64,000 bases of DNA from Minisyncoccia bacterium (GTDB lineage Bacteria > Patescibacteriota > Minisyncoccia > Phycocordibacterales > PALSA-1337): NCBI GenBank assembly GCA_044228445.1, contig JBGAUV010000002.1:19219-83218 (forward strand). Direction: 5' to 3'. Made by a program: the position numbers and the translations under genes. Below are positions 8,005 to 61,464 of this stretch, one piece after another (within the stretch, counting starts at the first letter, position 1; each line of letters opens with the position of its first letter). The notes beneath the pieces are model-generated. The model saw only the letters and a list, made by a program, of their open reading frames with translations, ran no database searches and was not told where the DNA came from.

Positions 8005-8823
8005 ATGAATGCCATTAATTATAAAAATAACAAAGGCTTCACACTAATTGAACTTCTTGTAGTAATATCTATTATAGGTATGATGTCTTCTGTTGTTCTT
8101 GCTTCAGTAAATGTAACTAGAGACAAAGCTAGATTGGCAGGTGCTCAGAAATTTAGCGGGTATAATAATAGAACGTTAAGTGCTGACGCTGCAGGAATAT
8201 GGAGTTTTGATGAAGGTTCCGGTTCAATAGCTTATGATACAAGCGGTAATAGTAATAATGTTACATTATCAGCTGGCGCAACGAGATCTTCAGCAGAAAC
8301 TCCAAATAAAGTGGGGTATTCACTTTCTTTGTCTGCTGGTACTTATGCTGGTGCCCCATATTCTCAAAGTTTAGATATATCAAAAGGAACATTATCTACT
8401 TGGGTTAAGACATCTAATCAAGCTATTCAAGCTATTATAGTTAAGGTTGGTTCTTATTCTTTATATACAAGAGTAGGTCAAGCGGTCTTATATGATGCAA
8501 ATAGTAATACGTACAAAGGTAGCAATACTATTGTGGCTGATGATAAATGGCATCATGTAGCTGTATCGTTCAACCACAATGTTGCAAATGGTTTAAATAT
8601 ATATGTTGATGGTTTATTAAAATATACAGGCACAGCCTCAACGCCTAGTGGTGGTGTAAATGGTGTTGGTATTGGTTCCGCATTTTATAATAGTGCAGCT
8701 ACAACATTTACCGGTTATATTGATGAAGTTGCTATATATAACAGTGTGTTAGCACAAGAACAAATAAAAGAAATATATGCTAGAGGTATAGACACTCATT
8801 CAAATCTATCTATAAATAAATAA
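8005..8823 (+). CDS. type IV pilin-like protein with C-terminal LamG/concanavalin-like lectin domain
   Basis: The N-terminus is MNAINYKNNKG|FTLIELLVVISIIGMMSS. The C-terminal region WHHVAVSF...IYVDGLL...FTGYIDEVAIYNSVLAQEQIKEIY is typical of LamG_3 domains. Confidence 0.8.
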   Translation: MNAINYKNNKGFTLIELLVVISIIGMMSSVVLASVNVTRDKARLAGAQKFSGYNNRTLSADAAGIWSFDEGSGSIAYDTSGNSNNVTLSAGATRSSAETPNKVGYSLSLSAGTYAGAPYSQSLDISKGTLSTWVKTSNQAIQAIIVKVGSYSLYTRVGQAVLYDANSNTYKGSNTIVADDKWHHVAVSFNHNVANGLNIYVDGLLKYTGTASTPSGGVNGVGIGSAFYNSAATTFTGYIDEVAIYNSVLAQEQIKEIYARGIDTHSNLSINK

Positions 8824-21418: not shown

Positions 21419-23603
<2,185 letters not shown>

Positions 23604-27502: not shown

Positions 27503-30500
27503 CTAAGCCAACCTTTTTACCTTTTCAACTATAATACTTTTTTCACCTTTTCTTTCTGAAACTTTTCCTTTTATTGCTACACAAGCATCTTTTGTAAAAC
27601 TTGATTTGAATTCTACTAAAGTTCTAGGAAATACTACTGCTTCTATACTTCCAGAAAAGTCTGCGAGCTTTATGAAAAGCATAGTGTTACCATCTTTTGT
27701 TGCTATTGGTTTTCCTTCTTCTATAACACAAGCTATGGTGACGATATCATTTGCTTTGCATCTTTCTTTTATTTTTTTTATATCTATATCTTTTTCTTCT
27801 ATTATTTTTCTATATGCATCTAGGGGGTGGCCTGAAACGTACAAACCTAGTAATTCTTTTTCCCAACCTAGTCTTTCTTTTGGACTGATATTGTCTGCTG
27901 GAGCTAGTTTTAGACCAGGAAGTGTAGTTTTATCAGACATGAGACCAAAGAGCGAATCTTGATTGTCTGCTTCTTTTGCTCTTTCTTTATTGTATTCGAG
28001 TAGTGTCTCTATATTTGCAATTAATATTCCTCTATCTATACCGAAACTATCCAAAGCTCCTGATTTTATGAGTGCTTCTAGTGATTTTTTATTTAAATTT
28101 CTATCTTTTACTCTATCTAGGAAGTCTGGTAAAGATTTAAATTTTCCATTCTTTTTTCTTTCATCTATTATTGCTGTTGCAATTCCTTGACCGAAGTTTT
28201 TTATAGTAACTAGTCCAAAACGAATACGGTGTGAAGGTGGTTTCTTGGTGGTATTTGAAGTAGAAGAATCTGATGTGGAAGAAGAAGTATCTTCACGAGT
28301 CCGAGGACTGTCTGAGCGTAGCGATAGCGTAGCGAGTTCCGCAGGACGAAGTGGAGATACTTCTTCTTCCGCATTTTCCTCGGCTTCCACACCAGAAACA
28401 TCCTTAACCACTGTAAACTGACTATAACTTTCATTTATATCCGGTGGAAGGATGGGAATACTCATACGTTTACATTCCGCTACTATTTCTGCAATCTTTT
28501 CTACATCACCAGAATCAGCAGTAAGTACAGCTGACATATATATAGCGGGGAAGTTGGCTTTCATATAGCTTGTTTGATAGGCTACACGACCATAACTAGC
28601 AGCATGAGCTTTGTTAAAACCGTAAGCGGCAAAAGGTTCTATGAGTAACCAAAGCTTTTTTGATTTTGAATCTGAAAGACCTCCTTTTTTAAATCCAGCC
28701 ATGAGTTTGTCTTTCTGTTCGGCCATTTCTTTTGGAATTTTTTTACCCATAGCTTTTCTAAGCTTATCTGCTTCAAGCCAAGAGTATCCCGCAAGTTTAA
28801 TGGCAATCATCATAACGTCGTCTTGATATGTAATAACTCCATAAGACATATCTAGTATGTCTTTCATTCTAGGATCGAGATATTCTACTTTGCTATTATC
28901 ATGTTTTCTTTCTATGTATACAGGAATCATTTCAAGAGGTCCTGGACGATAGAGGGCAACCATCGCATTTATATCGTGTATTCGACTTGGCTTTAGATCA
29001 ATTAAAAATCTAGTCATACCGCTACCATTTAATTGGAATAGGCCTATTGTTTCTCCTCTAGCGAGCATTTCAAAAGTCTTTTTATCATCAAGAGGAATAT
29101 TTTCTATATCAATATCTATATTTTCAATTTTCTTTACTCTATCTACTGCATCAGCAAGTATTGAAAGGTTTTTTATTCCTAGAAAGTCGAACTTGAGTAG
29201 ACCTATTCCATCTTCACCAACATCATGCATGTCGTATTGAGTAATAATTTTCTTTTCACCTTTTGTATCGTATTGAAGTGGAGCATTTTCAATAAGTGGT
29301 GTTGGAGCGATCACAACTCCAGCAGCGTGTACGGAAATGTGTCTGGCACAGCCTTCTATTTTCATAGCCATGTCTATTATTCTTTTTGTATCTGCATTTT
29401 TTTCATATTGTTCTTTTAGTTCAGGAACTTCTGCTAGGGCTCTCTCTATAGTCATAGGGAAACCTTGAGCACCCATGGGTATGAGTTTTGATATTTTATC
29501 GCCAATTTCATATGGATAACCCATACTTCTTGCTACATCCCTCACTGAACCTTTGGCCATCATAGTTCCAAATGTTCCGATCTGAGCAACTTTATCATGA
29601 CCATATTTTCTTCGAGCATATTCTATAACTTCATCGCGACGATTATCGGCAAAGTCCATGTCGATATCGGGAGCAGAAGGACGTTCTGGGTTTAAAAATC
29701 TTTCAAAAGGAAGTTTGTATTCAAGAGGATTAACATTTGTAATACCTGCCAAGTATGTCACTAGAGAACCAGCCACCGAACCTCTGATGTTTGTTAGAAT
29801 TCCATTTGCATGAGAATAGTGCAATAAATCCCATACCACGAGAAAATATTGAGAATATCCTTTATCCTTTATAACTTTTAATTCATATTCAATACGATCA
29901 ATTAATTCTTTTGTTTCTTGAACTTTTCTTTTAGCAATACCCTCAAAAACAATTCTACGAAGTTCATCATCATAAGATAGTCCTGATTCAACTATGAAGT
30001 TTGGGAATATCCATTTACCTAGTGTTATATCAATATTGCACATATCGGCAATCTTTTTTGTATTTGCTATTGCTTCAGGAATATCTTTAAAGAGTTCTTC
30101 GGCTCTTTCTCCTGATATAAAAGAAAAATCTTCATCTTCACTTTCATCTCTTTTATCACTGGCATCTCCAAGTGTATTTACAAGTACTAGAGTATCACGA
30201 GCTTCACGATCCTCCGGGTGAATATAGTAAACATCATGAGCTGCGACAATTTGAGTATTAGTCTCTTTTGCAAAAGCAATCAGGTCTTTCATTAAAGGTT
30301 CATGATTTGGAATTTCTGGGTGACGAGTTATTTCTAAAAAGAAATTGTCACTACCATAAATGGTTTTATAAAAGTTCAATTTAGCCAAGGCTTTCTCTTT
30401 ATTTTTATTCTTTAAAGCCTGAGCAATTTCTCCAGAAAAACTAGGTGATATGCATACTAAGTTTTCATTATATTTTTCTATTAATTCTTCATCAATACGA

Positions 30501-30853
30501 GGTTTATAATAAAAGCCTTCAAGATGTGAAAGTGTTACTAACTTTATTAAGTTTTTATAACCATCATGATTTTTTGCAAGTAAAACTAGTCTTGATCTCT
30601 TATTATCAATACCTGCTTGCATATCAGTTCTAGTTCTTGCCGCTACATAAAAATCTACACCAAGAATTGGCTTTATCTCTTTCTTTTTACATACTTTATA
30701 GAATTCTATAGCACCATACATATTTCCAGCATCAGTTAAAGCTAAAGCCGGCATGCCATATTTTTTTGCTTGTCCTACCAAGTCATCAATCTTCGGTAGG
30801 GCATTCAAAAGTGAATAGTGGCTATGTGTATGAAGGTGTATAAAATCAGACAT
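27503..30853 (-). CDS. dnaE: DNA polymerase III alpha subunit
   Basis: The PHP domain (HLHTHSHYSLL), the polymerase core and a C-terminal OB fold are present. A Ser/acidic low-complexity insertion sits at about aa 820-880. Confidence 0.9.
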   Translation of the reverse strand: MSDFIHLHTHSHYSLLNALPKIDDLVGQAKKYGMPALALTDAGNMYGAIEFYKVCKKKEIKPILGVDFYVAARTRTDMQAGIDNKRSRLVLLAKNHDGYKNLIKLVTLSHLEGFYYKPRIDEELIEKYNENLVCISPSFSGEIAQALKNKNKEKALAKLNFYKTIYGSDNFFLEITRHPEIPNHEPLMKDLIAFAKETNTQIVAAHDVYYIHPEDREARDTLVLVNTLGDASDKRDESEDEDFSFISGERAEELFKDIPEAIANTKKIADMCNIDITLGKWIFPNFIVESGLSYDDELRRIVFEGIAKRKVQETKELIDRIEYELKVIKDKGYSQYFLVVWDLLHYSHANGILTNIRGSVAGSLVTYLAGITNVNPLEYKLPFERFLNPERPSAPDIDMDFADNRRDEVIEYARRKYGHDKVAQIGTFGTMMAKGSVRDVARSMGYPYEIGDKISKLIPMGAQGFPMTIERALAEVPELKEQYEKNADTKRIIDMAMKIEGCARHISVHAAGVVIAPTPLIENAPLQYDTKGEKKIITQYDMHDVGEDGIGLLKFDFLGIKNLSILADAVDRVKKIENIDIDIENIPLDDKKTFEMLARGETIGLFQLNGSGMTRFLIDLKPSRIHDINAMVALYRPGPLEMIPVYIERKHDNSKVEYLDPRMKDILDMSYGVITYQDDVMMIAIKLAGYSWLEADKLRKAMGKKIPKEMAEQKDKLMAGFKKGGLSDSKSKKLWLLIEPFAAYGFNKAHAASYGRVAYQTSYMKANFPAIYMSAVLTADSGDVEKIAEIVAECKRMSIPILPPDINESYSQFTVVKDVSGVEAEENAEEEVSPLRPAELATLSLRSDSPRTREDTSSSTSDSSTSNTTKKPPSHRIRFGLVTIKNFGQGIATAIIDERKKNGKFKSLPDFLDRVKDRNLNKKSLEALIKSGALDSFGIDRGILIANIETLLEYNKERAKEADNQDSLFGLMSDKTTLPGLKLAPADNISPKERLGWEKELLGLYVSGHPLDAYRKIIEEKDIDIKKIKERCKANDIVTIACVIEEGKPIATKDGNTMLFIKLADFSGSIEAVVFPRTLVEFKSSFTKDACVAIKGKVSERKGEKSIIVEKVKRLA

Positions 30854-31810: not shown

Positions 31811-32713
31811 ATGGCAAATAGACATCTTTCAAGATCAATAGTTCTCCAAACCCTATTTGAATGGGATTTTCGAGGTCAAAACGATAAAGAAATAAAGGAT
31901 ATTGTAACTAGAGATGCAAAAGAATTTGCTCCAGGGGTAAATGATGTTTCTTTTATTGAAGAATTAACTTCAAATGTACTAGCCAAAAGACCCGATTTGG
32001 ACAAAATAATAGAAAAAGCAGCTCCAGATTGGCCACTTGATAAAATATCAGTCGTCGATAGAAATGTGCTTCGTATAGGTTTATACGAATTACTCTTTGC
32101 CGATAGAGATGAAGTTCCTGCAAAAGTAGCTATAAATGAAGCTATAGAACTAGCAAAAAACTTTGGAGGAGAAAATAGTGGTAAGTTTGTAAACGGTGTA
32201 CTAGGTTCAGTATACAAAGAATTGGGAGAACCAGGAAAGGATGCAACACCAAAAAAGAAAAAGAAGATTGAAGATATTCCTTATGAACAAATGCCAATAC
32301 AAAATCTTGGCGGAGCAGTAGTTTTTGCAAGAGATGGTAGTGATATATATCTAGCTTTTGTTCATGATGTATTCGGACACTGGACATTATCAAAAGGAAA
32401 AATCCCAAATGGTGTCGATATAAAAGAGGGTACAGTAGCAAAAGTAAAAGAAGAAATGGGTTTGGATGTAAAAATAGTTCTAGACCTTGGAAATAATGAA
32501 TATATAGCAAGTGATCCAGAGCTTGGAAAACTTAGAAAACAAGTACATTACTTTTTAGCTGAATCAAAATACTCAGATATAACACTAGCAAAAAAACCTG
32601 GACTAGATGATGGAAAATGGTTCAAACTAGCAGATATACTTGAACTTAATTTTTATAATGATATATTGCCAATAGTTACAAAATCCATAAAGTATTTGAC
32701 TGAAGGAAAGTAG
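31811..32713 (+). CDS. nusB: NusB-family antitermination factor fused to a C-terminal NUDIX-fold domain (degenerate NUDIX box)
   Basis: Amino acids 1-140 form a NusB domain (RSIVLQTLFEWDF...VDRNVLRIGLYELLF...AINEAIELAKNFGGENSGKFVNGVLG). A Lys-rich linker PKKKKK follows. Amino acids ~165-300 then carry GHWTLSKGKIPNGVDIKEGTVAKVKEEMGL, which aligns with the MutT segment [30 protein letters not shown]. Confidence 0.75.
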   Translation: MANRHLSRSIVLQTLFEWDFRGQNDKEIKDIVTRDAKEFAPGVNDVSFIEELTSNVLAKRPDLDKIIEKAAPDWPLDKISVVDRNVLRIGLYELLFADRDEVPAKVAINEAIELAKNFGGENSGKFVNGVLGSVYKELGEPGKDATPKKKKKIEDIPYEQMPIQNLGGAVVFARDGSDIYLAFVHDVFGHWTLSKGKIPNGVDIKEGTVAKVKEEMGLDVKIVLDLGNNEYIASDPELGKLRKQVHYFLAESKYSDITLAKKPGLDDGKWFKLADILELNFYNDILPIVTKSIKYLTEGK

Positions 32714-32724
32714 TAGCAAAATCT

Positions 32725-33420
32725 ATGCCAGATTTCCTAAAACTTGCAAGTAAAATAAAAACTGAATTTAAAGATATAAACCTGCTTCGCCAGGCTTGTA
32801 CTCATCGTTCATATTTAAATGAAAATAAATCTTCAGGTCTTGAACATAATGAAAGACTGGAGTTTCTTGGTGATGCAGTACTTGAACTAGTTGTTACACA
32901 TTTTCTATACAAAAAATTCCCAGGAAGAAATGAAGGTGAACTTACAGCTTATCGTTCAGCAATAGTAAATACCGTAAGCTTATCAAAAGCAGCAAGCTTT
33001 ATGGGTATAAATGAATACTTACTTTTATCAAAAGGAGAATCAAAAGATACAGGAAGAGCAAGATCAATTATTCTTGCAGATACAGTTGAAGCAATTATCG
33101 GATCTATTTATGTAGATCAGGGTTATGATAGTGCAGAGAAATTTATTGCTAACTTTATACTAGAAGTTATTGATATTGATGAAATAATCGATAAGAAACT
33201 TTGGCTTGATGCAAAGAGTCGTTTCCAAGAAAAAGCTCAAGAAGAAACAGGTATAACTCCAACATATAAAACTATGAAAGAAACTGGTCCAGATCATAGC
33301 AAACTCTTTACTCTAGGTGTATTTATAGGTGATAAACAAATAGCTTTAGGAACAGGAATGTCAAAACAAGAAGCAGAACAAAAAGCCGCAGAAAAAGCAC
33401 TAGAGGTAAAAGGGTGGTAA
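32725..33420 (+). CDS. rnc: ribonuclease III
   Basis: The RNase III signature ERLEFLGDAVLELVV and a C-terminal dsRBD are present. Confidence 0.9.
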   Translation: MPDFLKLASKIKTEFKDINLLRQACTHRSYLNENKSSGLEHNERLEFLGDAVLELVVTHFLYKKFPGRNEGELTAYRSAIVNTVSLSKAASFMGINEYLLLSKGESKDTGRARSIILADTVEAIIGSIYVDQGYDSAEKFIANFILEVIDIDEIIDKKLWLDAKSRFQEKAQEETGITPTYKTMKETGPDHSKLFTLGVFIGDKQIALGTGMSKQEAEQKAAEKALEVKGW

Positions 33421-33424
33421 AAAT

Positions 33425-34321
33425 ATGTTAAAAAAGAATAATTTAATTTACATCATTCCGCTCATTTTAATACTTGCTATTTTTTCAAGATATACGATTT
33501 TAAGCATATTTCATTTAGAGAAAGTGGTAGAAAATAAACCAATAATTAATAATATTAAAGAGGGTAAGGATGAAACACAAAAAAAGAATATAGATAATAG
33601 ACTATTATCTGATGAACTTTATGATTATAAAATAATAGGAGGAAAATATTTATATAAATATGTTGCAAATATCGATCCTGATAAATTTAAAATCATTGAT
33701 AACGGACTTGCAGTAGATGATGTATGGACATATTGGAATGGGTCACGAATAGATATTACTCCAAGTAAAATGGTTGTGATAAGAAATAAGGATATAATAT
33801 CGGCACTAAAGGATGACTATAGAGTTTTTGTTGCACCGAATAATGATCCAATACAAGTAAAGGGTGCTGATCCAGTTAGTTTCGATTTTAATAATGGAAA
33901 TCAATATCCTAGTGATAAAAATCATGTTTATTATATGAAGTATAACTACGATGATTCAGGTATAAGTATATTACAAGATGCAGACCCAAAATCATTTAAA
34001 GTTTTAGGAGAGTGTCGAATGATTGAAATATATGGAACATTGCTAGCAAAGGATTCAAAACATGTTTATGTGGAGAATAAAATAATTCCATATATAGATA
34101 CAGAAAGTTTTAATTTTATTACTAAATTTTCACTTGATAGTGTAGATTTGCCAGCTATGTTTAGTTTTTCTAAGGATAAAAATAATATATATTATAATTG
34201 CGGTAAGATTTTAGAAGGTGCTGATTATAATACATTTGAATATATTGGAAACGGTGTAGCGCAGGATAAGAATTATACTTATAAATTGGGAGAATTTAAT
34301 TCATTTAGAGTTAAGAGATAG
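33425..34321 (+). CDS. DKNYY-domain repeat protein with N-terminal membrane anchor
   Basis: An N-terminal transmembrane segment is present. The motif DKN(H/N)(V/I)YY recurs (DKNHVYYMKY, SKHVYVENK, DKNNIYYNCG), consistent with the DKNYY family. Confidence 0.6.
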   Translation: MLKKNNLIYIIPLILILAIFSRYTILSIFHLEKVVENKPIINNIKEGKDETQKKNIDNRLLSDELYDYKIIGGKYLYKYVANIDPDKFKIIDNGLAVDDVWTYWNGSRIDITPSKMVVIRNKDIISALKDDYRVFVAPNNDPIQVKGADPVSFDFNNGNQYPSDKNHVYYMKYNYDDSGISILQDADPKSFKVLGECRMIEIYGTLLAKDSKHVYVENKIIPYIDTESFNFITKFSLDSVDLPAMFSFSKDKNNIYYNCGKILEGADYNTFEYIGNGVAQDKNYTYKLGEFNSFRVKR

Positions 34322-34925: not shown

Positions 34926-37166
34926 ATGTATCTCAAATCACTCGAGATTGTGGGTTTTAAGTCATTTGCAAAAAAGGCAAGTCTAAATTTTACTTCACCT
35001 ATATCAAGTATTGTAGGGCCCAATGGTTCTGGAAAAAGTAATGTTGCAGAAGCATTTCGTTTTGTACTTGGTGAACAATCCATAAAAAGCATGAGAGGTA
35101 AGAGAGGAGAGGATCTTATTTTTAATGGTGGAGGTGAAGGAAATAGAGTAAATAGCGCTTCAGTAAAAGTAGTTTTTGATAATAGAAAAAAGATTTTAAA
35201 TATAGATTTTCCTGAAGTAAGTTTGGAAAGAAGAGTTCATAGAGATAATTCAAATGAGTATTTTATAAATGGAAGCCAAGTAAGACTTAAGGATATTATA
35301 GAATTACTTTCAGGGGCACATATAGGTGCTTCAGGACATCATATTATTTCACAAGGTGAAGCCGATAGAATATTGAATGCAAATATTCGTGAAAGAAAAG
35401 AAATGATAGAAGATGCACTTGGTCTTAAAATTTATCAATATAAAAAGACAGAAAGTCAAAAGAAACTAGAAAAAACTGATGAAAATATGAAATCAGTAGA
35501 GTCTCTACGCCGTGAACTAGCTCCACATTTAAAATTCCTAAAAAAGCAGGTTGAAAAAGTAGAAAAAGTTGCTGAACTTAGAAGAGAATTGGAAGAAGTA
35601 TATAAACAATACATAAAGACTGAAGAGATATATGTAAAAAATGAAAAAGAAAAAATAAATATAGAGAAACAACCTTTAATAAAAGAAACAGAAATACTAG
35701 ATAAAGAAATTGCCAATGCCAGAAAAGTCCTTGAAACTTCAAGTCATAGAGATATATCTTCAGATGAATTAATTTCAATAGAAGGAAAACTAGCTGAAAT
35801 AAGAAAAGAAAAAGACGGAATATTTCATGAAAGTGGAAAAATAGAAGGAGAAATTACAGTTTTAAATAGAGCCCTTGAAAGAGAAAAGCAAGCTCATGCT
35901 AGGGATGAACATAAGACAGTATATGTAAGCCAAGTAGAAGAAATTGGTCTAAAAATAGAGAGTTTAAAAGATATACTTGATGCAAAAACATTATTTACAG
36001 AAGTAAAAAGGATATTTACTGATTTTATTTTATTTCATAAAGGTAATAGAGATAATTCTAGAATTGAAGACATAAATAAAGAATTAAAATTACTCATTTC
36101 TCAAAAGCAGGATTTAGAAAAATCTTTACAAAAAATAAAAGAAAAAGAAGATAATACGACAGTGGATTATCTTGAACTTAGAAAAAAGATAGAAAGAGAA
36201 AAAGATACAAATAGAGATGCAGAAAAACAAGTTTTCCAAATAATAGCTCGTCAAAATGAAATTAGAGGACAATTAAATGCAATAAGGACTAGAGAAACAA
36301 ATCTTGTTATAGATGAAGAAAATTTGAAGAAAGAAATAGAACAAGCGTATATGTTTGTTGGAAGAAGTGCTGTGGATTTTGGTGACTTAGTTGTGGATAC
36401 TAATGAAGATAGAAGTATTCAACATGATAGATTGAGAAAAATTGAAAAAATAAAGATAAGAATAGAAGATTCTGGTGCTGGAAATGGTGGAGAAATTTTA
36501 AAAGAGTATAAAGAAGCAGAAGAACGCGATGCATTTTTAGCAAAGGAACTTTCAGATTTATTTGCTTCAAAGAAATCTTTATATGATTTAATTGCAGATT
36601 TAGATATGAGAATATCTATAGAGTTTAAAGAGGGAATATTGAAAATAAATAGTCAATTTCAAGAATTCTTTTCACTTATGTTTGGTGGAGGAAATGCTTC
36701 ATTATCAGTTGTAAAAGAAAAGAAAAAGAAAAGATCTCTAACAGATTTGGGGGCAATATTAAATAATGAAGAAAGTATTCCAGAATCAGAAATAGATGAT
36801 GAAAATGGGGAAGAAGGAATAGAAATACAAGTTAGTCTACCAAGAAAGAAAATAAAAAATCTAATGATGCTTTCAGGTGGAGAAAGAGCACTTACTTCGA
36901 TCGCTCTTCTTTTTGCTGTATCTCAAGTGAATCCTCCACCTTTTATTATTCTAGATGAAACAGATGCAGCACTAGATGAAGCAAATTCAAGAAAGTATGG
37001 AGATATGATTGCTAATCTTTCAAAATATTCTCAATTAATTTTAATTACACACAATAGAGAAACAATGTCTCGAGCGGGAGTAATATATGGGGTAACTATG
37101 GATGGGGGAGGTAGTTCAAAATTATTATCAATACAGTTTGAAGAGGCAGTAAAGGTGGCGAAATAA
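34926..37166 (+). CDS. SMC-family ATPase, short (746 aa) with no recognisable hinge domain
   Basis: The N-terminal head is SMC-like (LEIVGFKSFA...IVGPNGSGKSNVAEAFRFVLGEQSIKSMRG). The C-terminal head has the signature/Walker B motifs (LSGGERALTSIALLFAV...PFIILDETDAALDEAN). The centre is about 400 aa of coiled coil with no Gly-rich hinge motif. Confidence 0.75.
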   Translation: MYLKSLEIVGFKSFAKKASLNFTSPISSIVGPNGSGKSNVAEAFRFVLGEQSIKSMRGKRGEDLIFNGGGEGNRVNSASVKVVFDNRKKILNIDFPEVSLERRVHRDNSNEYFINGSQVRLKDIIELLSGAHIGASGHHIISQGEADRILNANIRERKEMIEDALGLKIYQYKKTESQKKLEKTDENMKSVESLRRELAPHLKFLKKQVEKVEKVAELRRELEEVYKQYIKTEEIYVKNEKEKINIEKQPLIKETEILDKEIANARKVLETSSHRDISSDELISIEGKLAEIRKEKDGIFHESGKIEGEITVLNRALEREKQAHARDEHKTVYVSQVEEIGLKIESLKDILDAKTLFTEVKRIFTDFILFHKGNRDNSRIEDINKELKLLISQKQDLEKSLQKIKEKEDNTTVDYLELRKKIEREKDTNRDAEKQVFQIIARQNEIRGQLNAIRTRETNLVIDEENLKKEIEQAYMFVGRSAVDFGDLVVDTNEDRSIQHDRLRKIEKIKIRIEDSGAGNGGEILKEYKEAEERDAFLAKELSDLFASKKSLYDLIADLDMRISIEFKEGILKINSQFQEFFSLMFGGGNASLSVVKEKKKKRSLTDLGAILNNEESIPESEIDDENGEEGIEIQVSLPRKKIKNLMMLSGGERALTSIALLFAVSQVNPPPFIILDETDAALDEANSRKYGDMIANLSKYSQLILITHNRETMSRAGVIYGVTMDGGGSSKLLSIQFEEAVKVAK

Positions 37167-37459
37167 AAAATAAAAAAAGGGAGCTCCTACATAATCGTAG
37201 AAAAGCTCCTCTTTGTTTCTTCAGAGAAACGTATATTTAAATACTTCCCTGAGTAAGGAATAGTTCGGCTATTCCCGACAAACAAGTGATTTTACACGCC
37301 CCGTAGCTACGGATAATTCCATAATGTTTATCGAGCTATATTTATAACATATATGTATAATATTGGCAATAGCTAACTATTTCGACTTTTATTTCGAATT
37401 GATTAAAACTTCATAACTTTTTCATTATTTCTTTATCACTGTTTTGCTACATTGATTTT

Positions 37460-37816
37460 ATGTATAGCAACGAAGAGATAATTAATAATGCCAAATCTTT
37501 TTATTTAAAAATAGGAAGTATACCTTGTTCTGCCTTAGGAAATATGAATATTGTATTTGGCAGTGTTGGATGGAGGCATATTTTATGGAAAAACAGATTA
37601 CCAAGAAATACCAGTGATAAATTAAGGAGAATAAAGTTATTGAAATACGCTCCGGTTGTAGTCAATAAAGGGTGTTTAATTTTTTATAGACAGGATTACA
37701 AAAATGGTATTTTAGGTAAATTTTGGAAGTTAAAAATGAAAATAAATAATAAAGAAGTAAAAGTTGTAATCAGACAGATTGGCGGTGGCGATATAAATTT
37801 TTTTAGCATTATGTAA
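37460..37816 (+). CDS. hypothetical protein (orphan island gene)
   Basis: This 118-aa basic protein has no recognisable motif. It lies in a 1.2-kb non-housekeeping gap between smc and rnr. Confidence 0.35.
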   Translation: MYSNEEIINNAKSFYLKIGSIPCSALGNMNIVFGSVGWRHILWKNRLPRNTSDKLRRIKLLKYAPVVVNKGCLIFYRQDYKNGILGKFWKLKMKINNKEVKVVIRQIGGGDINFFSIM

Positions 37817-37987
37817 ACTAAAATCTCCCATTAAATAAATTTAAGGGAGACTCTAGTCTTGCTCTCAACGATAATGTCGAGGGAGATCCATACAATTTCT
37901 TGTATATCCCACAAGATTTATAGATTATATACCAAAAATTATAGAAATCAAACTACTTTTATTTAAGTGCGGATTAAATGTTAAGTA

Positions 37988-38016
37988 TTGACATAAAGAC
38001 TAAAAAGTTTTAGTCT
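37988..38016 (+). promoter_or_regulatory. sigma-70-like promoter (TTGACA, 17 nt, TAGTCT) overlapped by a perfect 9-bp inverted repeat (candidate operator)
   Basis: TTGACA lies at 37988-37993. The inverted repeat AGACTAAAA-ag-TTTTAGTCT (37997-38016) covers the spacer and the -10, about 55 nt upstream of the ORF at 38071. Confidence 0.4.
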
Positions 38017-38070
38017 GATTCGTAGAAGAAAACCACTAAAACCAGTAAGAAAACCAAAACCCTAGTAAAT

Positions 38071-38331
38071 ATGGCTAAGACTACTTTTTCACCTGGCGAT
38101 CGATTTATTTGTTACAAAGGTCAAGAAAAACGCTACGGCATAGTTCTCCCAGATATGAAAGCACTTATCATTTCTGGAAGAGGAGGACGTTCGGGTTATA
38201 GTTTGGAAAAAAAAGATATTCCCAGTGATGCAATTACTGCACAATCATACAGCTGGCCACATGAAATTACTTTTGCTTTTGATTGCGCTGCTTTTGCACT
38301 CGATTTGAACATATCAACTGCAAGATTCTGA
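38071..38331 (+). CDS. hypothetical protein (orphan island gene, GC-richer)
   Basis: This is an 86-aa ORF. A terminator follows it (AAGACCTTC...GAAGGTCTT plus T-run, 38335-38392) and is shared with the convergent rnr. Confidence 0.35.
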   Translation: MAKTTFSPGDRFICYKGQEKRYGIVLPDMKALIISGRGGRSGYSLEKKDIPSDAITAQSYSWPHEITFAFDCAAFALDLNISTARF

Positions 38332-38385
38332 AGACCTTCATGGGACTGACCTTTAATAGGGCTTTCCACGAAGGTCTTTCTCTTT

Positions 38386-42752: not shown

Positions 42753-43169
42753 TTGAATTTAATCAATACATGTAGTAATGTTTCCTTCAGACAACTTAGG
42801 AGGGAATATATGGGTGATTCAATTACCGACTTTATCGATTCATTGTATGGGGAATCCACATTTAGTTTTACATTCATGAATATACCATTCTGTGGAGACA
42901 TCTGTGATATGTGGTATTACCCAAGACATGAAAAGGGTCAGAAGAAACTGGTAATTCAGTTAAGCACACTACGGATGCTAATTCTTTACGGAACAAATGA
43001 GAGATGTCGACCAAGATTCAGGTACGTTTTGATACTTAATGGATCGCATATTGAGACAAGAGGTAGAGAATTGATAATATCTCTAAATACAAGAATTCAA
43101 GAAAATGGTCACATGATAGGACCAATAGTATCAATTAGGAAGTTGGATGATACTATATACACAACATAA
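42753..43169 (+). CDS. hypothetical protein (orphan gene; occupies position where rplS usually follows trmD)
   Basis: The ORF is 138 aa, or about 119 aa from the internal ATG at 42811. It is GC-richer than its neighbours. Confidence 0.4.
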   Translation: MNLINTCSNVSFRQLRREYMGDSITDFIDSLYGESTFSFTFMNIPFCGDICDMWYYPRHEKGQKKLVIQLSTLRMLILYGTNERCRPRFRYVLILNGSHIETRGRELIISLNTRIQENGHMIGPIVSIRKLDDTIYTT

Positions 43170-60059: not shown

Positions 60060-60758
60060 CTATTTTAAAACCAAATCCTCAAGGTTTTTTATCCTAGGTT
60101 TATGATCTTCTATAAGTATAAGCTCAATATTTTGCGCTCTAATCTCATATCTACCAATATGAGCTTGTATTTTTTCCATATTTATACCCAATTCTTCCAT
60201 ATCATAATGTAAGCCAGATATATCATCTCTGATTTCAGATATATCACCAGACATTTTATTCATACTTGTTCCCATTCTATCTATTTCATTTTTTGTCATC
60301 ATTGCCAAACCCTCAATTTCTCTATGAACTCCATCAAATCTTTCATTCATTTCAGATCTTAAATCTGATACTTCTATTTTAATACCCTTTATTTCATCTT
60401 TAATTGAATTAATCTCAGTTTTGATTTCATTAATCTCACTCTTGATACCAGTTATCTCACTCTTGATACCAGTTATCTCACTCTTGATGTCATTAATCTC
60501 ACTTTTTATTCCTTCAATTTCTCTATGAACTCCATCAAATCTTTCATTCATTTCAGACCTCAAATCTGATATTTCTATTTTGATACTCTTTATTTCATCT
60601 TTCATTGAATTAATCTCACTTTTTATACCATTTATCTCACCTTTAATTCCATTTATCTCAACTTTTAAATTACTAATCTCAATTTTAATTCCATTGATCT
60701 CTTTTGTAATAAAACTTTGCAAATCAATTATGTATTGCGGTGCTTTTTCTATAACCAT
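60060..60758 (-). CDS. heptad-repeat coiled-coil protein (tandem EI(N/T)GIKS repeats) with internal duplication
   Basis: There are more than 15 copies of the 7-aa unit EIxGIKS/EIKxIKx. A 67-aa segment (...SDLRSEMNERFDGVHREIEG...) occurs twice, 201 bp apart. Confidence 0.5.
   Translation of the reverse strand: MVIEKAPQYIIDLQSFITKEINGIKIEISNLKVEINGIKGEINGIKSEINSMKDEIKSIKIEISDLRSEMNERFDGVHREIEGIKSEINDIKSEITGIKSEITGIKSEINEIKTEINSIKDEIKGIKIEVSDLRSEMNERFDGVHREIEGLAMMTKNEIDRMGTSMNKMSGDISEIRDDISGLHYDMEELGINMEKIQAHIGRYEIRAQNIELILIEDHKPRIKNLEDLVLK
60300..60640. repeat. intragenic direct repeat (two ~120-bp near-identical copies 201 bp apart, plus 21-bp tandem duplicate at 60441-60482)
   Basis: The copies are ccctcaatttctctatgaactccatcaaatctttcattcatttcaga at 60310-60356 and ccttcaatttctctatgaactccatcaaatctttcattcatttcaga at 60511-60557. 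The sequence ccagttatctcactcttgata occurs twice in tandem. Confidence 0.6.
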
Positions 60759-61002: not shown

Positions 61003-61464
61003 ATGATGAATCAAAATGCGGTAAATTGCGAGTTAAAACTCGCTGAAGTTATCTATCATTTGGTTTTACTTAAGAAGTGGAGAGATGGGCATTGTTTGGG
61101 TGAGACAAGGTTGTTGGATGATGAAGTTGATATGCTTGGTGTAGTGGAAATTTGTCCAGGAATTACAATTTCAAATCTTGCAAAGTATATAGGAATTTCA
61201 TTAACAACAGCAATTGAAAAACTTGAAAAGCTAATTAGATTGTCCTATGTAACTCAAGAGGGTGAAGGTAGAAAATTACCAATTCATCTGACTGAAAGTG
61301 GGAAACAAACTCTTTTACAAGCAAAGCTCAGGTATTTACACCAAGTAATACTTGGATCACATCTGGAAGGTAAGAGTGCAACAACAGAACTGCATGATCT
61401 TTTAGGAGAGATAGATAATAAAGTTACAGAAAAACTTCTTGAACCATTTAATCCAGTTTACTAA
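61003..61464 (+). CDS. MarR-family-like winged-helix transcriptional regulator
   Basis: The helix-turn-helix region is ITISNLAKYIGISLTTAIEKLEKLIRLSYV, followed by a wing (EGEGRKLPIHLTESG). It is transcribed divergently from the coiled-coil repeat gene. Confidence 0.6.
   Translation: MMNQNAVNCELKLAEVIYHLVLLKKWRDGHCLGETRLLDDEVDMLGVVEICPGITISNLAKYIGISLTTAIEKLEKLIRLSYVTQEGEGRKLPIHLTESGKQTLLQAKLRYLHQVILGSHLEGKSATTELHDLLGEIDNKVTEKLLEPFNPVY

What the first reader, a model, noticed from the sequence alone, without database searches (positions are those of the whole stretch)
34926..37166. Hinge-less, short (746 aa) SMC-family ATPase
The N- and C-terminal head halves are unmistakably SMC-type (FKSF...GPNGSGKSN, and LSGGE...ILDETDAALD). 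The protein is about 400 aa shorter than canonical SMC, and the central region is continuous coiled coil with no Gly-rich hinge motif. It is either a minimal condensin for a reduced genome or an SMC-like protein of a different functional class, for example Sph/ClsN-like or a defence-associated SMC-like ATPase. No ScpA/ScpB genes are adjacent.
Basis: partly seen in the sequence, partly recalled or inferred. Interest (0 to 1): 0.5.

Follow-up and report, generated by a model that had tools for sequence, protein, structure and literature searches.

The report
Hinge-less, half-length bacterial Smc condensin
This gene is the normal chromosome-organising Smc ATPase of a large group of tiny-genome bacteria (Parcubacteria/Paceibacteria), but it has naturally lost its hinge domain and the outer half of both arms while keeping its usual partner proteins, so it shows in nature how much of an SMC machine is dispensable.

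Summary
ORF 34926-37166 (+) encodes a 746-aa protein with genuine Smc heads, neck and joint. It has no hinge, and its arms are about 170 aa instead of about 344 aa. A roughly 55-aa two-helix cap replaces about 500 canonical residues.

It is not an artefact. More than 270 distinct sequence clusters, identity down to 40%, keep the same length. At least 543 species-level genomes match it, and the best 80 all show the short form. None of 66 diverse members has an SMC_hinge match.

It sits in the conserved rnc-smc position, so it is the resident Smc and not a defence or mobile gene.

That is true, but they are encoded elsewhere. On one 729-kb contig of a relative, the short Smc coexists with canonical ScpA and ScpB in a trpS-aspS-scpA-scpB cluster. 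Six further contigs show ScpA with the short Smc.

Best reading: a natural mini Smc-ScpAB condensin, resembling engineered Mini-Smc and hinge-swap constructs. How it dimerises without a hinge is unresolved.

A hinge-less SMC was reported in 2025 for marine Actinobacteria. I found no description of this much larger CPR family.

The parts
34926..37166 (+). smc, the short hinge-less form (746 aa plus stop codon)
   Evidence: ORF confirmed. SMC_N. TIGR02168 523 bits. Bs Smc head structures E 6e-91.
34926..35426 (+). N-terminal half of the ATPase head (aa 1-167). Includes Walker A GPNGSGKS (aa 31-38, nt 35016-35039), R57 and Q-loop Q143.
   Evidence: Invariant columns. Alignment to Bs Smc head. AF2 strands and helices.
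35427..35900 (+). N-terminal arm helix (aa 168-325), co-linear with Bs Smc up to about residue 325. The neck part (aa 170-230) is moderately conserved.
   Evidence: AF2 helices 168-272 and 277-325. Conservation profile. HMM alignment to Bs Smc. Length of the 167-304 segment is 138 aa, p5-p95 135-143.
35832..35855 (+). Conserved island in the distal N-arm (aa 303-310, family consensus phi-G-[KR]-phi-E-G-x-phi). It has two glycines four residues apart (G304, G308, each 87%). It aligns with 'KLEGR' of Bs Smc at about residue 300.
35901..36062 (+). Apex cap that replaces the hinge and distal arms (aa 326-379). It consists of a loop, helix A (334-345), a loop, helix B (353-371) and a loop. A heptad-like hydrophobic pattern is conserved at positions 332, 337, 340, 344, 350, 353, 357, 360, 364 and 367 (74-99% hydrophobic). 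There is no CxxC motif.
   Evidence: AF2 (pLDDT 55-72 in this stretch). Family length median 59 aa, p5-p95 47-64, and CxxC in 4 of 144. Hydrophobicity profile. No hinge HMM hit.
36063..36356 (+). Distal part of the returning C-terminal arm helix (aa 380-477), corresponding to Bs Smc about 833-930.
   Evidence: AF2 helix 380-477. Anchor G479-R480 aligns with Bs G932-R933. Length 97.5 aa, p5-p95 91-101.
36357..36485 (+). Joint interruption of the C-terminal arm (aa 478-520). Includes the conserved 'I-E-[KR]-[IL]-K-I-R-[IL]-E..G' stretch.
   Evidence: AF2 break at 478-495 and helix 496-516. The best Foldseek hit is the Pyrococcus Smc head + coiled coil + joint, 5xei, E 1e-30. Alignment to Bs 'LIKLAIEELG'.
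36486..36683 (+). Head-proximal C-terminal neck helix (aa 521-586), ending in FGGG (aa 586-589). In canonical Smc this region binds the kleisin N-terminal domain.
   Evidence: AF2 helix 521-586. Conservation 2.1-3.0 bits. The 496-586 segment is 91 aa long, p5-p95 90-92. The kleisin-binding role is inferred from PDB 3zgx (title shown).
36684..37163 (+). C-terminal half of the ATPase head (aa 587-746). Includes signature LSGGE (aa 649-653, nt 36870-36884), Walker B/D-loop ILDETDAALD (aa 675-684) and H709. It carries a variable acidic loop at aa 598-629 (nt 36717-36812).
   Evidence: loop gap fraction 0.13-0.53. (pLDDT below 50 at 611-617). (loop length 11-41 aa across the family).
32725..33420 (+). 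rnc (RNase III), the conserved upstream neighbour that marks the orthologous smc position.
   Evidence: rnc lies at position -1 or -2 in 54 loci and within 4 genes in 68 of 83 loci. The same rnc-smc adjacency appears in the Parcubacteria core-gene table.

Best explanation
This is the resident, orthologous Smc of Parcubacteria/Paceibacteria (CPR). An internal, register-matched deletion removed the hinge and the distal half of both coiled-coil strands, about 500 residues (Bs Smc ~326-832). A folded two-helix cap of about 55 aa took their place. What remains is a complete, catalytically competent ABC head, the neck, the joint, and an arm of about 170 residues per strand (about 25 nm, against about 344 residues and 47-49 nm in B. 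subtilis).

It most likely still works as an Smc-ScpAB condensin. ATP-driven head engagement and disengagement would be bridged by the kleisin ScpA together with ScpB, which are encoded elsewhere in the genome. The complex would load onto and organise the small (0.5-0.8 Mb) chromosome.

What is shown: the identity and orthology of the gene, what was deleted, the tightly constrained arm length, the intact ATPase motifs, and the co-occurrence of ScpA and ScpB in relatives.

What is inferred: (i) the helical cap, possibly together with the nearby G-x-x-x-G island, provides the constitutive Smc-Smc dimer contact that the hinge normally provides; (ii) the 170-aa arm is a 'legal' arm length, about two coiled-coil super-helical periods shorter than the canonical arm; (iii) the complex entraps or extrudes DNA like canonical Smc-ScpAB, with a smaller lumen and step.
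For: Identity and orthology. TIGR02168 scores 523 bits against 34 bits for recN. Heads match the Bs Smc head at E 6e-91. The best structural match is prokaryotic Smc head + coiled coil + joint, 5xei, E 1e-30. The rnhB-rpmF-nusB/NUDIX-rnc-smc synteny holds in 70 of 83 loci and in published Parcubacteria genomes, which list one smc locus tag each.

Real and ancient. The 120 closest clusters are 733-756 aa. The 150 best 50%-identity representatives, down to 41% identity, are 594-782 aa. At least 543 GTDB species genomes match, and the best 80 all show the short form. 66 of 66 members have SMC_N and none has SMC_hinge.

Deletion mapping. This used a Bs Smc reference validated against PDB fragments. 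The family is co-linear with Bs 1 to about 325 and with about 833-1186.

Arm tuning. Segment lengths are tightly constrained although sequence conservation is only about 1 bit per site. Bürmann et al. [quoted passage not shown]

Partners. On JGI contig Ga0558126_00083 (728,797 bp) a 736-aa short Smc coexists with trpS-aspS-ScpA (PF02616)-ScpB (PF04079). Contig Ga0642624_00510 carries both a short Smc and ScpA. Five more exact contig-length matches link ScpA to the short Smc. The published table shows scpA and scpB in 14 and 15 Parcubacteria genomes.

Conservation. The neck/joint and the C-terminal head strands, which are the kleisin-binding regions in canonical Smc, are the best-conserved non-catalytic parts. 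The cap has a conserved amphipathic pattern, so it is a folded module rather than a loop.
Against: No dimer model or experiment exists, so how two subunits are held together at the apex is unknown. The cap has only moderate model confidence (pLDDT 55-72) and low sequence conservation. ScpA/ScpB could not be read in the window's own genome, because its probable 245-kb source contig was not retrievable. Their presence there rests on synteny with relatives. A second, full-length SMC elsewhere in these genomes was not excluded by a whole-genome scan. The support is limited to none being found in 1.46 Mb of held DNA and one smc locus tag per genome in the published table. The arm-length periodicity argument depends on domain boundaries that I estimated to within about 10 aa.
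Confidence: 0.78

Rival explanations
1. It is an Smc-kleisin machine whose arms do not dimerise at the tip. The cap merely closes each hairpin, and the two subunits are held together only by ATP-engaged heads, the ScpA bridge and perhaps arm-arm contacts. Such a complex would lack a closed inter-arm (S) compartment and would work through the head-kleisin compartment alone.
For: The cap is small (median 59 aa), poorly conserved in sequence (about 1 bit per site), variable in loop length and only moderately confident in the monomer model. There is no zinc hook. ScpA and ScpB are present to bridge the heads.
Against: Every characterised SMC-like protein (Smc, MukB, Rad50, RecN) has a constitutive apical dimer contact; this rests on established knowledge, not on a test here. 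The cap keeps a strongly conserved wide hydrophobic face and lies near a G-x-x-x-G island, which is more than a simple hairpin turn would need. Arm length is tightly constrained, and Bürmann 2017 links that constraint to communication between the head and the dimerisation end.
Confidence: 0.15
2. It is a DNA-repair SMC-like ATPase of the RecN or Rad50/SbcC type that has been mis-taken for Smc.
For: Its length (746 aa) and hinge-less hairpin architecture resemble RecN and SbcC. Weak hits to Rad50 and RecN models exist.
Against: recN TIGR00634 scores 34 bits against a 408-bit cutoff. Rad50 models score at most 42 bits against cutoffs of 700 or more. Bacterial Smc scores 523 bits. CxxC is present in only 4 of 144 members. 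No Mre11/SbcD-type neighbour occurs in 83 loci. The gene holds the conserved rnc-smc position, and the genomes encode ScpAB.
Confidence: 0.04
3. It is a defence-associated or mobile SMC-like ATPase, such as Lamassu LmuB, Wadjet JetC, Gabija GajA or MADS mad3.
For: PADLOC hits: mad3 193 bits, LmuB 39 bits, JetC 32 bits, GajA 45 bits.
Against: All these hits fall on the shared ABC/SMC head and score far below bacterial Smc (523 bits). No neighbouring gene hits any defence model. The neighbourhood is conserved housekeeping. Only one fragment of the family is found in 2.9 million viral contigs.
Confidence: 0.02
4. It is an assembly artefact, frameshift or decaying pseudogene.
For: None was found.
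Against: The reading frame is intact. Five relatives at 92-93% identity from independent assemblies (JGI, Logan, NCBI) have the identical 746-aa length. Hundreds of divergent homologues have the same architecture, invariant catalytic residues and constrained segment lengths.
Confidence: 0.01

Closest known systems
Bacterial Smc of the Smc-ScpAB condensin (B. subtilis type; NCBIfam TIGR02168)
   Same: Head sequence and fold, ATPase motifs, neck, joint, the N-arm up to about residue 325 including the 'LEGR'-type island, the genomic position after rnc, and co-occurrence with ScpA (kleisin) and ScpB (kite).
   Different: No hinge domain (PF06470). About 500 residues are missing. Arms are about 170 aa per strand rather than about 344 aa. 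A two-helix cap of about 55 aa sits at the apex. There is a variable acidic loop in the C-terminal head. The protein scores below the curated TIGR02168 cutoff, and NCBI entries for the family are often named only 'AAA family ATPase'.
Engineered Mini-Smc and Smc(Zh) zinc-hook chimeras of B. subtilis (Bürmann et al. 2017, PMC5344682)
   Same: Shortened arms, and replacement of the hinge by an unrelated apical module, both compatible with function. The natural arm length here (about 170 aa) falls where the next 'legal' window is expected by extrapolation: 344, then 253-267, then about 162-190, close to their natural minor mode at 163 aa.
   Different: Those are laboratory constructs. They went down only to about 250-aa arms and always kept a proven dimerisation domain (hinge or Zn hook). 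This is a natural protein, with arms a further period shorter and an uncharacterised cap. Their sequence survey required a recognisable hinge, so proteins like this one would have been excluded.
'Hinge-less' SMC cluster of marine Actinomycetes-like bacteria (Sussfeld et al. 2025, PMC12153180)
   Same: A natural SMC by head sequence and fold, lacking a hinge and lacking a CxxC hook. Described as apparently not co-occurring with a regular SMC.
   Different: A different lineage (Actinobacteria against CPR/Parcubacteria). A small oceanic cluster, against hundreds of species here. That paper gives no partner, synteny or arm-length analysis.
RecN and Rad50/SbcC (hinge-less SMC-like repair ATPases)
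   Same: A head plus antiparallel coiled-coil hairpin without an SMC hinge, and a comparable overall size.
   Different: The heads here are Smc-type by a wide margin. There is no zinc hook. The joint and neck are Smc-like. The partner genes are ScpAB, not Mre11/SbcD.

Membership tests
Bacterial Smc (Smc-ScpAB condensin) | SMC-type ABC ATPase head split between the N and C termini, with Walker A, Q-loop, signature motif, Walker B, D-loop and H-loop | tested here: met
   SMC_N E 4.7e-60. Bs Smc head 5xg3 E 6e-91. The motifs are invariant in 144 representatives.
Bacterial Smc (Smc-ScpAB condensin) | Full-length match above the curated cutoff of the equivalog model TIGR02168 | tested here: not met
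   523.3 bits against a cutoff of 567.35. The shortfall corresponds to the missing middle, since only the ends of the model are matched.
Bacterial Smc (Smc-ScpAB condensin) | Central hinge dimerisation domain (Pfam SMC_hinge, PF06470) | tested here: not met
   No hit at E<=1. None of 66 diverse members has one. No precomputed PF06470 in the 120 closest clusters. The AF2 model leaves only about 54 aa between the arm helices.
Bacterial Smc (Smc-ScpAB condensin) | Long antiparallel coiled-coil arm of about 340 aa per strand (about 47-49 nm) | tested here: not met
   About 170 aa per strand. The coiled coil is present but half as long.
Bacterial Smc (Smc-ScpAB condensin) | Head-proximal neck and joint architecture | tested here: met
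   Foldseek top hit 5xei, 'Smc head domain with a coiled coil and joint', E 1e-30. Co-linear alignment to Bs Smc about 930-1186.
Bacterial Smc (Smc-ScpAB condensin) | Kleisin ScpA and kite ScpB encoded in the same genome | tested here: met
   Met for relatives. Ga0558126_00083 carries a short Smc plus ScpA and ScpB. Ga0642624_00510 carries a short Smc plus ScpA. Five more contig-length matches link the two. Not readable for the window's own genome; neither gene is in the 64-kb window.
Bacterial Smc (Smc-ScpAB condensin) | Conserved chromosomal position downstream of rnc | tested here: met
   plus the Parcubacteria table.
Bacterial Smc (Smc-ScpAB condensin) | Homodimer formation, ScpA binding, and DNA entrapment or loop extrusion | not testable with these tools
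   This needs multimer modelling or biochemistry. Only monomer prediction was available.
RecN | Match to equivalog TIGR00634 | tested here: not met
   33.7 bits against a cutoff of 407.85.
Rad50/SbcC | CxxC zinc hook at the coiled-coil apex, and an Mre11/SbcD nuclease partner | tested here: not met
   CxxC is in the apex of 4 of 144 members. Rad50 models score at most 42 bits against cutoffs of 700 or more. No nuclease partner among the conserved neighbours.
MukB/MksB/JetC (MukBEF-like, Wadjet) | MukB-type head and adjacent MukE/F- or JetA/B/D-like genes | tested here: not met
   PF04310 is matched weakly by 2 of 66 members. JetC scores 32 bits. No such neighbours.
Defence SMC-like ATPases (Lamassu LmuB, Gabija GajA, PARIS AriA, MADS mad3) | Best match to the defence model, and co-located system partners | tested here: not met
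   mad3 scores 193 bits, limited to the head. LmuB scores 39 bits and GajA 45 bits. The five neighbouring proteins tested have no PADLOC hit.
Archaeal SMC-related proteins (ASRP; the Sph/ClsN-like suggestion) | Match to NF045487 | tested here: not met
   26.9 bits against a cutoff of 300. The organism is bacterial (CPR). Sph and ClsN models themselves were not available.
'Hinge-less SMC' as described by Sussfeld et al. 2025 | SMC by head sequence and fold, no hinge, no CxxC hook | tested here: met

The most novel reading that the evidence does not exclude
The cap does not dimerise. On this reading Paceibacteria run a two-subunit Smc-ScpAB machine that has no closed inter-arm ring and is held together only at the head-kleisin end. 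That would mean chromosome organisation by an SMC complex needs only the head-kleisin compartment plus a short rigid arm. A slightly less radical version is that the two-helix cap, together with the G-x-x-x-G island, is a previously unknown minimal SMC dimerisation fold.
Probability: 0.17. Interest if true: 0.85.

Novelty: new variant of a known kind. Interest (0 to 1): 0.62.

Why it matters
The hinge and the roughly 50-nm arms are textbook, near-universal features of SMC complexes. They are assigned roles in dimerisation, DNA binding, DNA entry and setting the size of the DNA-holding lumen.

Here a very large bacterial radiation, with at least 543 species-level genomes matching, appears to use as its Smc a protein with no hinge and half-length arms. 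It retains the canonical kleisin and kite partners.

This is a natural counterpart of the engineered Mini-Smc and hinge-swap experiments. It offers a minimal Smc-ScpAB complex (about 740 + 245 + 185 aa) for structural and single-molecule work on three questions: what the hinge and arm length are really needed for, whether arm length is quantised in nature, and how small a loop-extruding or DNA-entrapping SMC machine can be.

There is also a practical point. The family scores below the curated Smc model cutoff, and NCBI entries for it are often labelled only 'AAA family ATPase'. Surveys of gene content could therefore wrongly score these genomes as lacking Smc.

Tried and rejected
1. Frameshift or assembly artefact. 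Rejected on conservation of the architecture.

2. ScpA/ScpB in the window or near smc. I searched with motif regexes, phmmer, HMMs from 5 PDB-verified seeds, and then HMMs from 80 ScpB and 56 ScpA metagenome sequences, against all ORFs of the window plus 82 smc loci (1.46 Mb). Nothing scored better than E about 0.1. Pfam on essentially all window ORFs of 100 aa or more found only housekeeping genes.

3. A conserved unknown partner next to smc. None was found in 83 loci.

4. Getting a CPR ScpB seed from the metagenome scan. It returned generic bacteria. Two loci that looked CPR-like only shared the universal dnaG-rpoD operon. The viral-contig ScpB scan gave two high-GC loci. All were dead ends.

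5. The route that worked. Locus tags in the Parcubacteria core-gene table showed a trpS-aspS-scpA-scpB cluster about 10 genes past typA/bipA. BipA homologues then led to locus L167 with ScpA, to ScpA homologues, and to ScpB.

6. Retrieving the window's own source contig beyond 64 kb. Only a 4.6-kb Logan contig was available.

7. The defence or mobile reading. Rejected.

8. afdb50 fold search. The library was not installed.

9. Model coordinates are not exposed, so the geometry of the cap could not be measured. No multimer prediction was available.

10. Literature. No paper describing the CPR form was found.
Full report
**1.

The window contains an intact ORF at 34926..37166 (+) of 746 aa. Pfam finds SMC_N spanning residues 2-728 (E 4.7e-60) and no SMC_hinge even at E<=1. 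NCBIfam's best model is bacterial Smc TIGR02168 at 523 bits, just below its 567-bit cutoff. RecN scores 34 bits, Rad50 models at most 42 bits, and the archaeal SMC-related ASRP model 27 bits. Against PDB sequences, the two head halves match B. subtilis and Geobacillus Smc heads (5xg3, E 6e-91).

**2. It is not an artefact but a large, old family**

- The 120 closest clusters (67-99% identity) are all 733-756 aa. None has a precomputed hinge domain.
- An exhaustive search of 1.84 billion cluster representatives gives 150 best hits at 41-59% identity, all 594-782 aa with median 744.
The best 80 all have match spans of 2.1-2.4 kb and are labelled Taylorbacteria, Paceibacterota or Parcubacteria.
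- The most divergent members looked up are still Parcubacteria/Paceibacterota. NCBI frequently names them only 'AAA family ATPase'.
- Pfam run on 66 diverse members gives SMC_N in 66 and SMC_hinge in none.

**3. Anatomy**

An AlphaFold2 model built on 144 diverse sequences is good (pLDDT 87.3, pTM 0.71). It shows, in order:

- the N-terminal head;
- helices 168-272 and 277-325;
- an apex of two short helices (334-345 and 353-371);
- helix 380-477;
- a break at 478-495;
- helices 496-516 and 521-586;
- the C-terminal head.

Foldseek's best PDB match is the Pyrococcus 'Smc head domain with a coiled coil and joint' (5xei, E 1e-30).

I validated it against PDB fragments with matching numbering: 5xg3, 5nnv, 5nmo and 5h66, plus hinge structures mapping to residues 465-719. 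A family HMM aligns reliably to Bs 1 to about 305, including the island 'G-[KR]-phi-E-G' against Bs 'KLEGR'. It also aligns to Bs about 930-1186, with G479-R480 matching Bs G932-R933 and N520 matching Bs N987. Extending along the modelled helices, the protein retains Bs ~1-325 and ~833-1186. About 500 residues, comprising both distal half-arms and the hinge, are replaced by about 54 aa.

**4. Constraints across the family**

Conservation is high in the heads (3-4 bits per site). It is intermediate in the neck and joint (2-3 bits at aa 170-230 and 500-590). It is about 1 bit in the distal arm and cap, except for the island at 301-310.

Despite that, segment lengths are tightly fixed:

| Segment | Median | p5-p95 |
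|---|---|---|
| 167 to 304 | 138 aa | 135-143 |
| 380 to 477 | 97.5 aa | 91-101 |
| 496 to 586 | 91 aa | 90-92 |
| cap | 59 aa | 47-64 |

The cap is not a zinc hook, since CxxC occurs in only 4 of 144 members. It keeps a heptad-like hydrophobic pattern, with positions 332, 337, 340, 344, 350, 353, 357, 360, 364 and 367 hydrophobic in 74-99% of members. The island has two glycines four residues apart, each 87% conserved. The cap is therefore a folded helical module rather than a linker.

**5. Arm length in context**

I used head and hinge boundaries back-calculated from Bürmann et al. 2017: a wild-type arm of 344 aa and a hinge piece spanning 487-684. This is my own estimate, good to about 10 aa. 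On that basis each strand here is about 170 aa (156-325 and 380-549).

That paper reports four relevant findings (PMC5344682):

- Natural prokaryotic Smc arm lengths have modes at 238, 341 and 515 aa, with minor ones at 163 and 423 aa.
- The functional period is about 91 aa.
- Functional truncations occur only at 253-267 aa.

Extrapolating one more period gives a window of about 162-190 aa, which contains 170. Their survey required an alignable hinge, so it would have excluded this family. The link to arm-length quantisation is an inference.

**6. Genomic context and partners**

The window is housekeeping throughout. In order it carries pheST, gyrB, eno, thrS, dnaE, rnhB, rpmF, a nusB-NUDIX fusion, rnc, a DKNYY protein, smc, rnr, rpsP, a KH protein, trmD, rpoBC, dnaG, rpoD, an addA-like gene, hisS, truB and bipA. 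Across 83 loci the block rnhB-rpmF-nusB/NUDIX-rnc-smc ... rnr-rpsP-KH-trmD is conserved. No unknown gene is consistently adjacent.

No ScpA or ScpB is present in the window or in 1.46 Mb of smc-flanking DNA. This used profiles built from PDB-verified seeds and then from 80 and 56 real sequences.

The supplementary core-gene table of Nelson & Stegen 2015 (PMC4508563) shows three things for Parcubacteria genomes:

- one smc locus tag per genome, adjacent to rnc;
- scpA in 14 genomes and scpB in 15;
- a trpS-aspS-scpA-scpB cluster which, in genome AB201, lies about 10 genes beyond hisS and typA.

I followed that lead. BipA homologues sit on contigs whose exact lengths equal those carrying short Smc proteins. 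Contig Ga0642624_00510 (89 kb) carries the 742-aa short Smc. With the same gene order as the window, it also carries an AspS-type synthetase and a 253-aa SMC_ScpA gene about 10 kb past bipA.

ScpA homologues (120 hits, all PF02616, 240-292 aa) share exact contig lengths with short Smc entries at 728797, 667545, 656986, 164781, 114152 and 29965 bp. For the 728,797-bp contig Ga0558126_00083 the record names were verified. The short Smc (736 aa, after rnhB-nusB/NUDIX-rnc) lies in record range 496-505 kb. The cluster trpS-aspS-ScpA (243 aa)-ScpB (184 aa, PF04079)-ftsW-murG lies in range 623-644 kb.

So the hinge-less Smc coexists with a canonical kleisin and kite. For the window's own genome this is inferred by synteny. 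Only 1.1 kb beyond the window (tatD, adk) could be fetched.

**7. Rivals**

- Defence or mobile readings fail. PADLOC's best hit (mad3, 193 bits) covers only the shared head, neighbouring genes have no defence hits, and only one fragment occurs in IMG/VR.
- RecN and Rad50 readings fail on scores, on the absence of a hook, and on partners.
- No second SMC-family gene occurs in the held Paceibacteria DNA, but whole genomes could not be scanned.
- The live uncertainty is mechanistic. Either the cap dimerises, which I judge more likely given its conserved amphipathic pattern and the universal apical dimerisation of SMC-like proteins. Or the complex is held together only at the head-kleisin end.

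**8. Novelty**

One paper, Sussfeld et al. 2025 (PMC12153180), reports 'hinge-less' SMC variants in an abundant marine Actinomycetes-like clade. [quoted passage not shown] It offers no partner, synteny or arm-length analysis.

Eight full-text searches found no description of the CPR/Parcubacteria form.

I therefore rate this as a new variant of a known kind. It is a bona fide Smc by descent and by partners, but it fails two textbook defining features, the hinge and the arm length.

**9. Verdict**

The interest is real for SMC biology. This is a natural, widespread, minimal Smc-ScpAB complex whose apical closure mechanism is unknown and could be tested directly.

Noticed in passing
window 31811-32713 (+): NusB is fused to a C-terminal NUDIX hydrolase domain (300 aa). 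The fusion is conserved upstream of rnc-smc in 68 of 83 related loci (Pfam NusB plus weak NUDIX in relatives). A NusB-NUDIX fusion is unusual and I did not look into its function.
   Followed up: partly
window 34926-37166; family-wide: The family scores 523 bits against TIGR02168's 567-bit cutoff. NCBI records often name members only 'AAA family ATPase' or 'hypothetical protein'. Automated gene-content surveys could therefore score these CPR genomes as lacking Smc.
   Followed up: partly
window 36717-36812 (aa 598-629 of Smc): A variable, acidic, low-confidence loop is inserted in the C-terminal head between two beta-strands. It is 11-41 aa long across the family, where B. subtilis Smc has about 9 residues. 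Its role is unknown.
   Followed up: partly
window 27503-30853 (-): The DnaE (Pol III alpha, 1116 aa) carries a low-complexity Glu/Ser/Thr-rich insertion ('...EEEVSPLRPAELATLSLRSDSPRTREDTSSSTSDSSTSNTTKKPPSHR...') in its C-terminal third. This is visible in the translation.
   Followed up: no
window 33425-34321 (+) and 37167-38385: The flanks of smc are variable. In this genome a membrane-anchored DKNYY-family protein sits between rnc and smc, whereas rnc is directly adjacent in 30 loci. The smc-rnr gap holds orphan ORFs (118 aa and 86 aa, with no Pfam or PADLOC hit). Relatives carry an acetyltransferase there.
   Followed up: partly
window 60060-60758 (-) and 61003-61464 (+): A 232-aa protein that is almost entirely coiled coil (many weak coiled-coil Pfam hits) lies next to a 153-aa protein with a faint winged-helix hit (DUF6293_C, E 7e-4). 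They sit between truB and bipA. Function is unknown, and neither matches the ScpA or ScpB profiles.
   Followed up: partly
window 42753-43169 (+): The 138-aa ORF directly after trmD, where rplS (L19) is usually found, has no Pfam hit at E<=1e-4. It has a TTG start.
   Followed up: no
window 21419-22945 (-): The enolase ORF is 508 aa with a GTG start, and Enolase_N begins only at residue 84. Either it has an N-terminal extension of about 80 aa or the true start is downstream. Its 5' end overlaps the methyltransferase ORF at 22797-23603 on the other strand.
   Followed up: no
L163 (IMGVR_UViG_3300009285_002250): An IMG/VR 'viral' contig of 6.9 kb carries a fragment 65-69% identical to this Smc family. 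It is most likely a CPR chromosomal fragment misfiled as viral.
   Followed up: partly
window 7493-8823 (+): Two adjacent type IV pilin-like genes with N-terminal methylation motifs. The second carries a Laminin_G_3/ConA-like lectin domain. This fits the surface-attachment lifestyle proposed for CPR bacteria.
   Followed up: no
L168 (Ga0558126_00083, 622925-643656) and the Parcubacteria table of PMC4508563: The scpA-scpB pair is embedded in a conserved trpS-aspS-scpA-scpB-ftsW-murG arrangement in Parcubacteria. This places the kleisin genes next to cell-wall and division genes rather than next to smc.
   Followed up: partly
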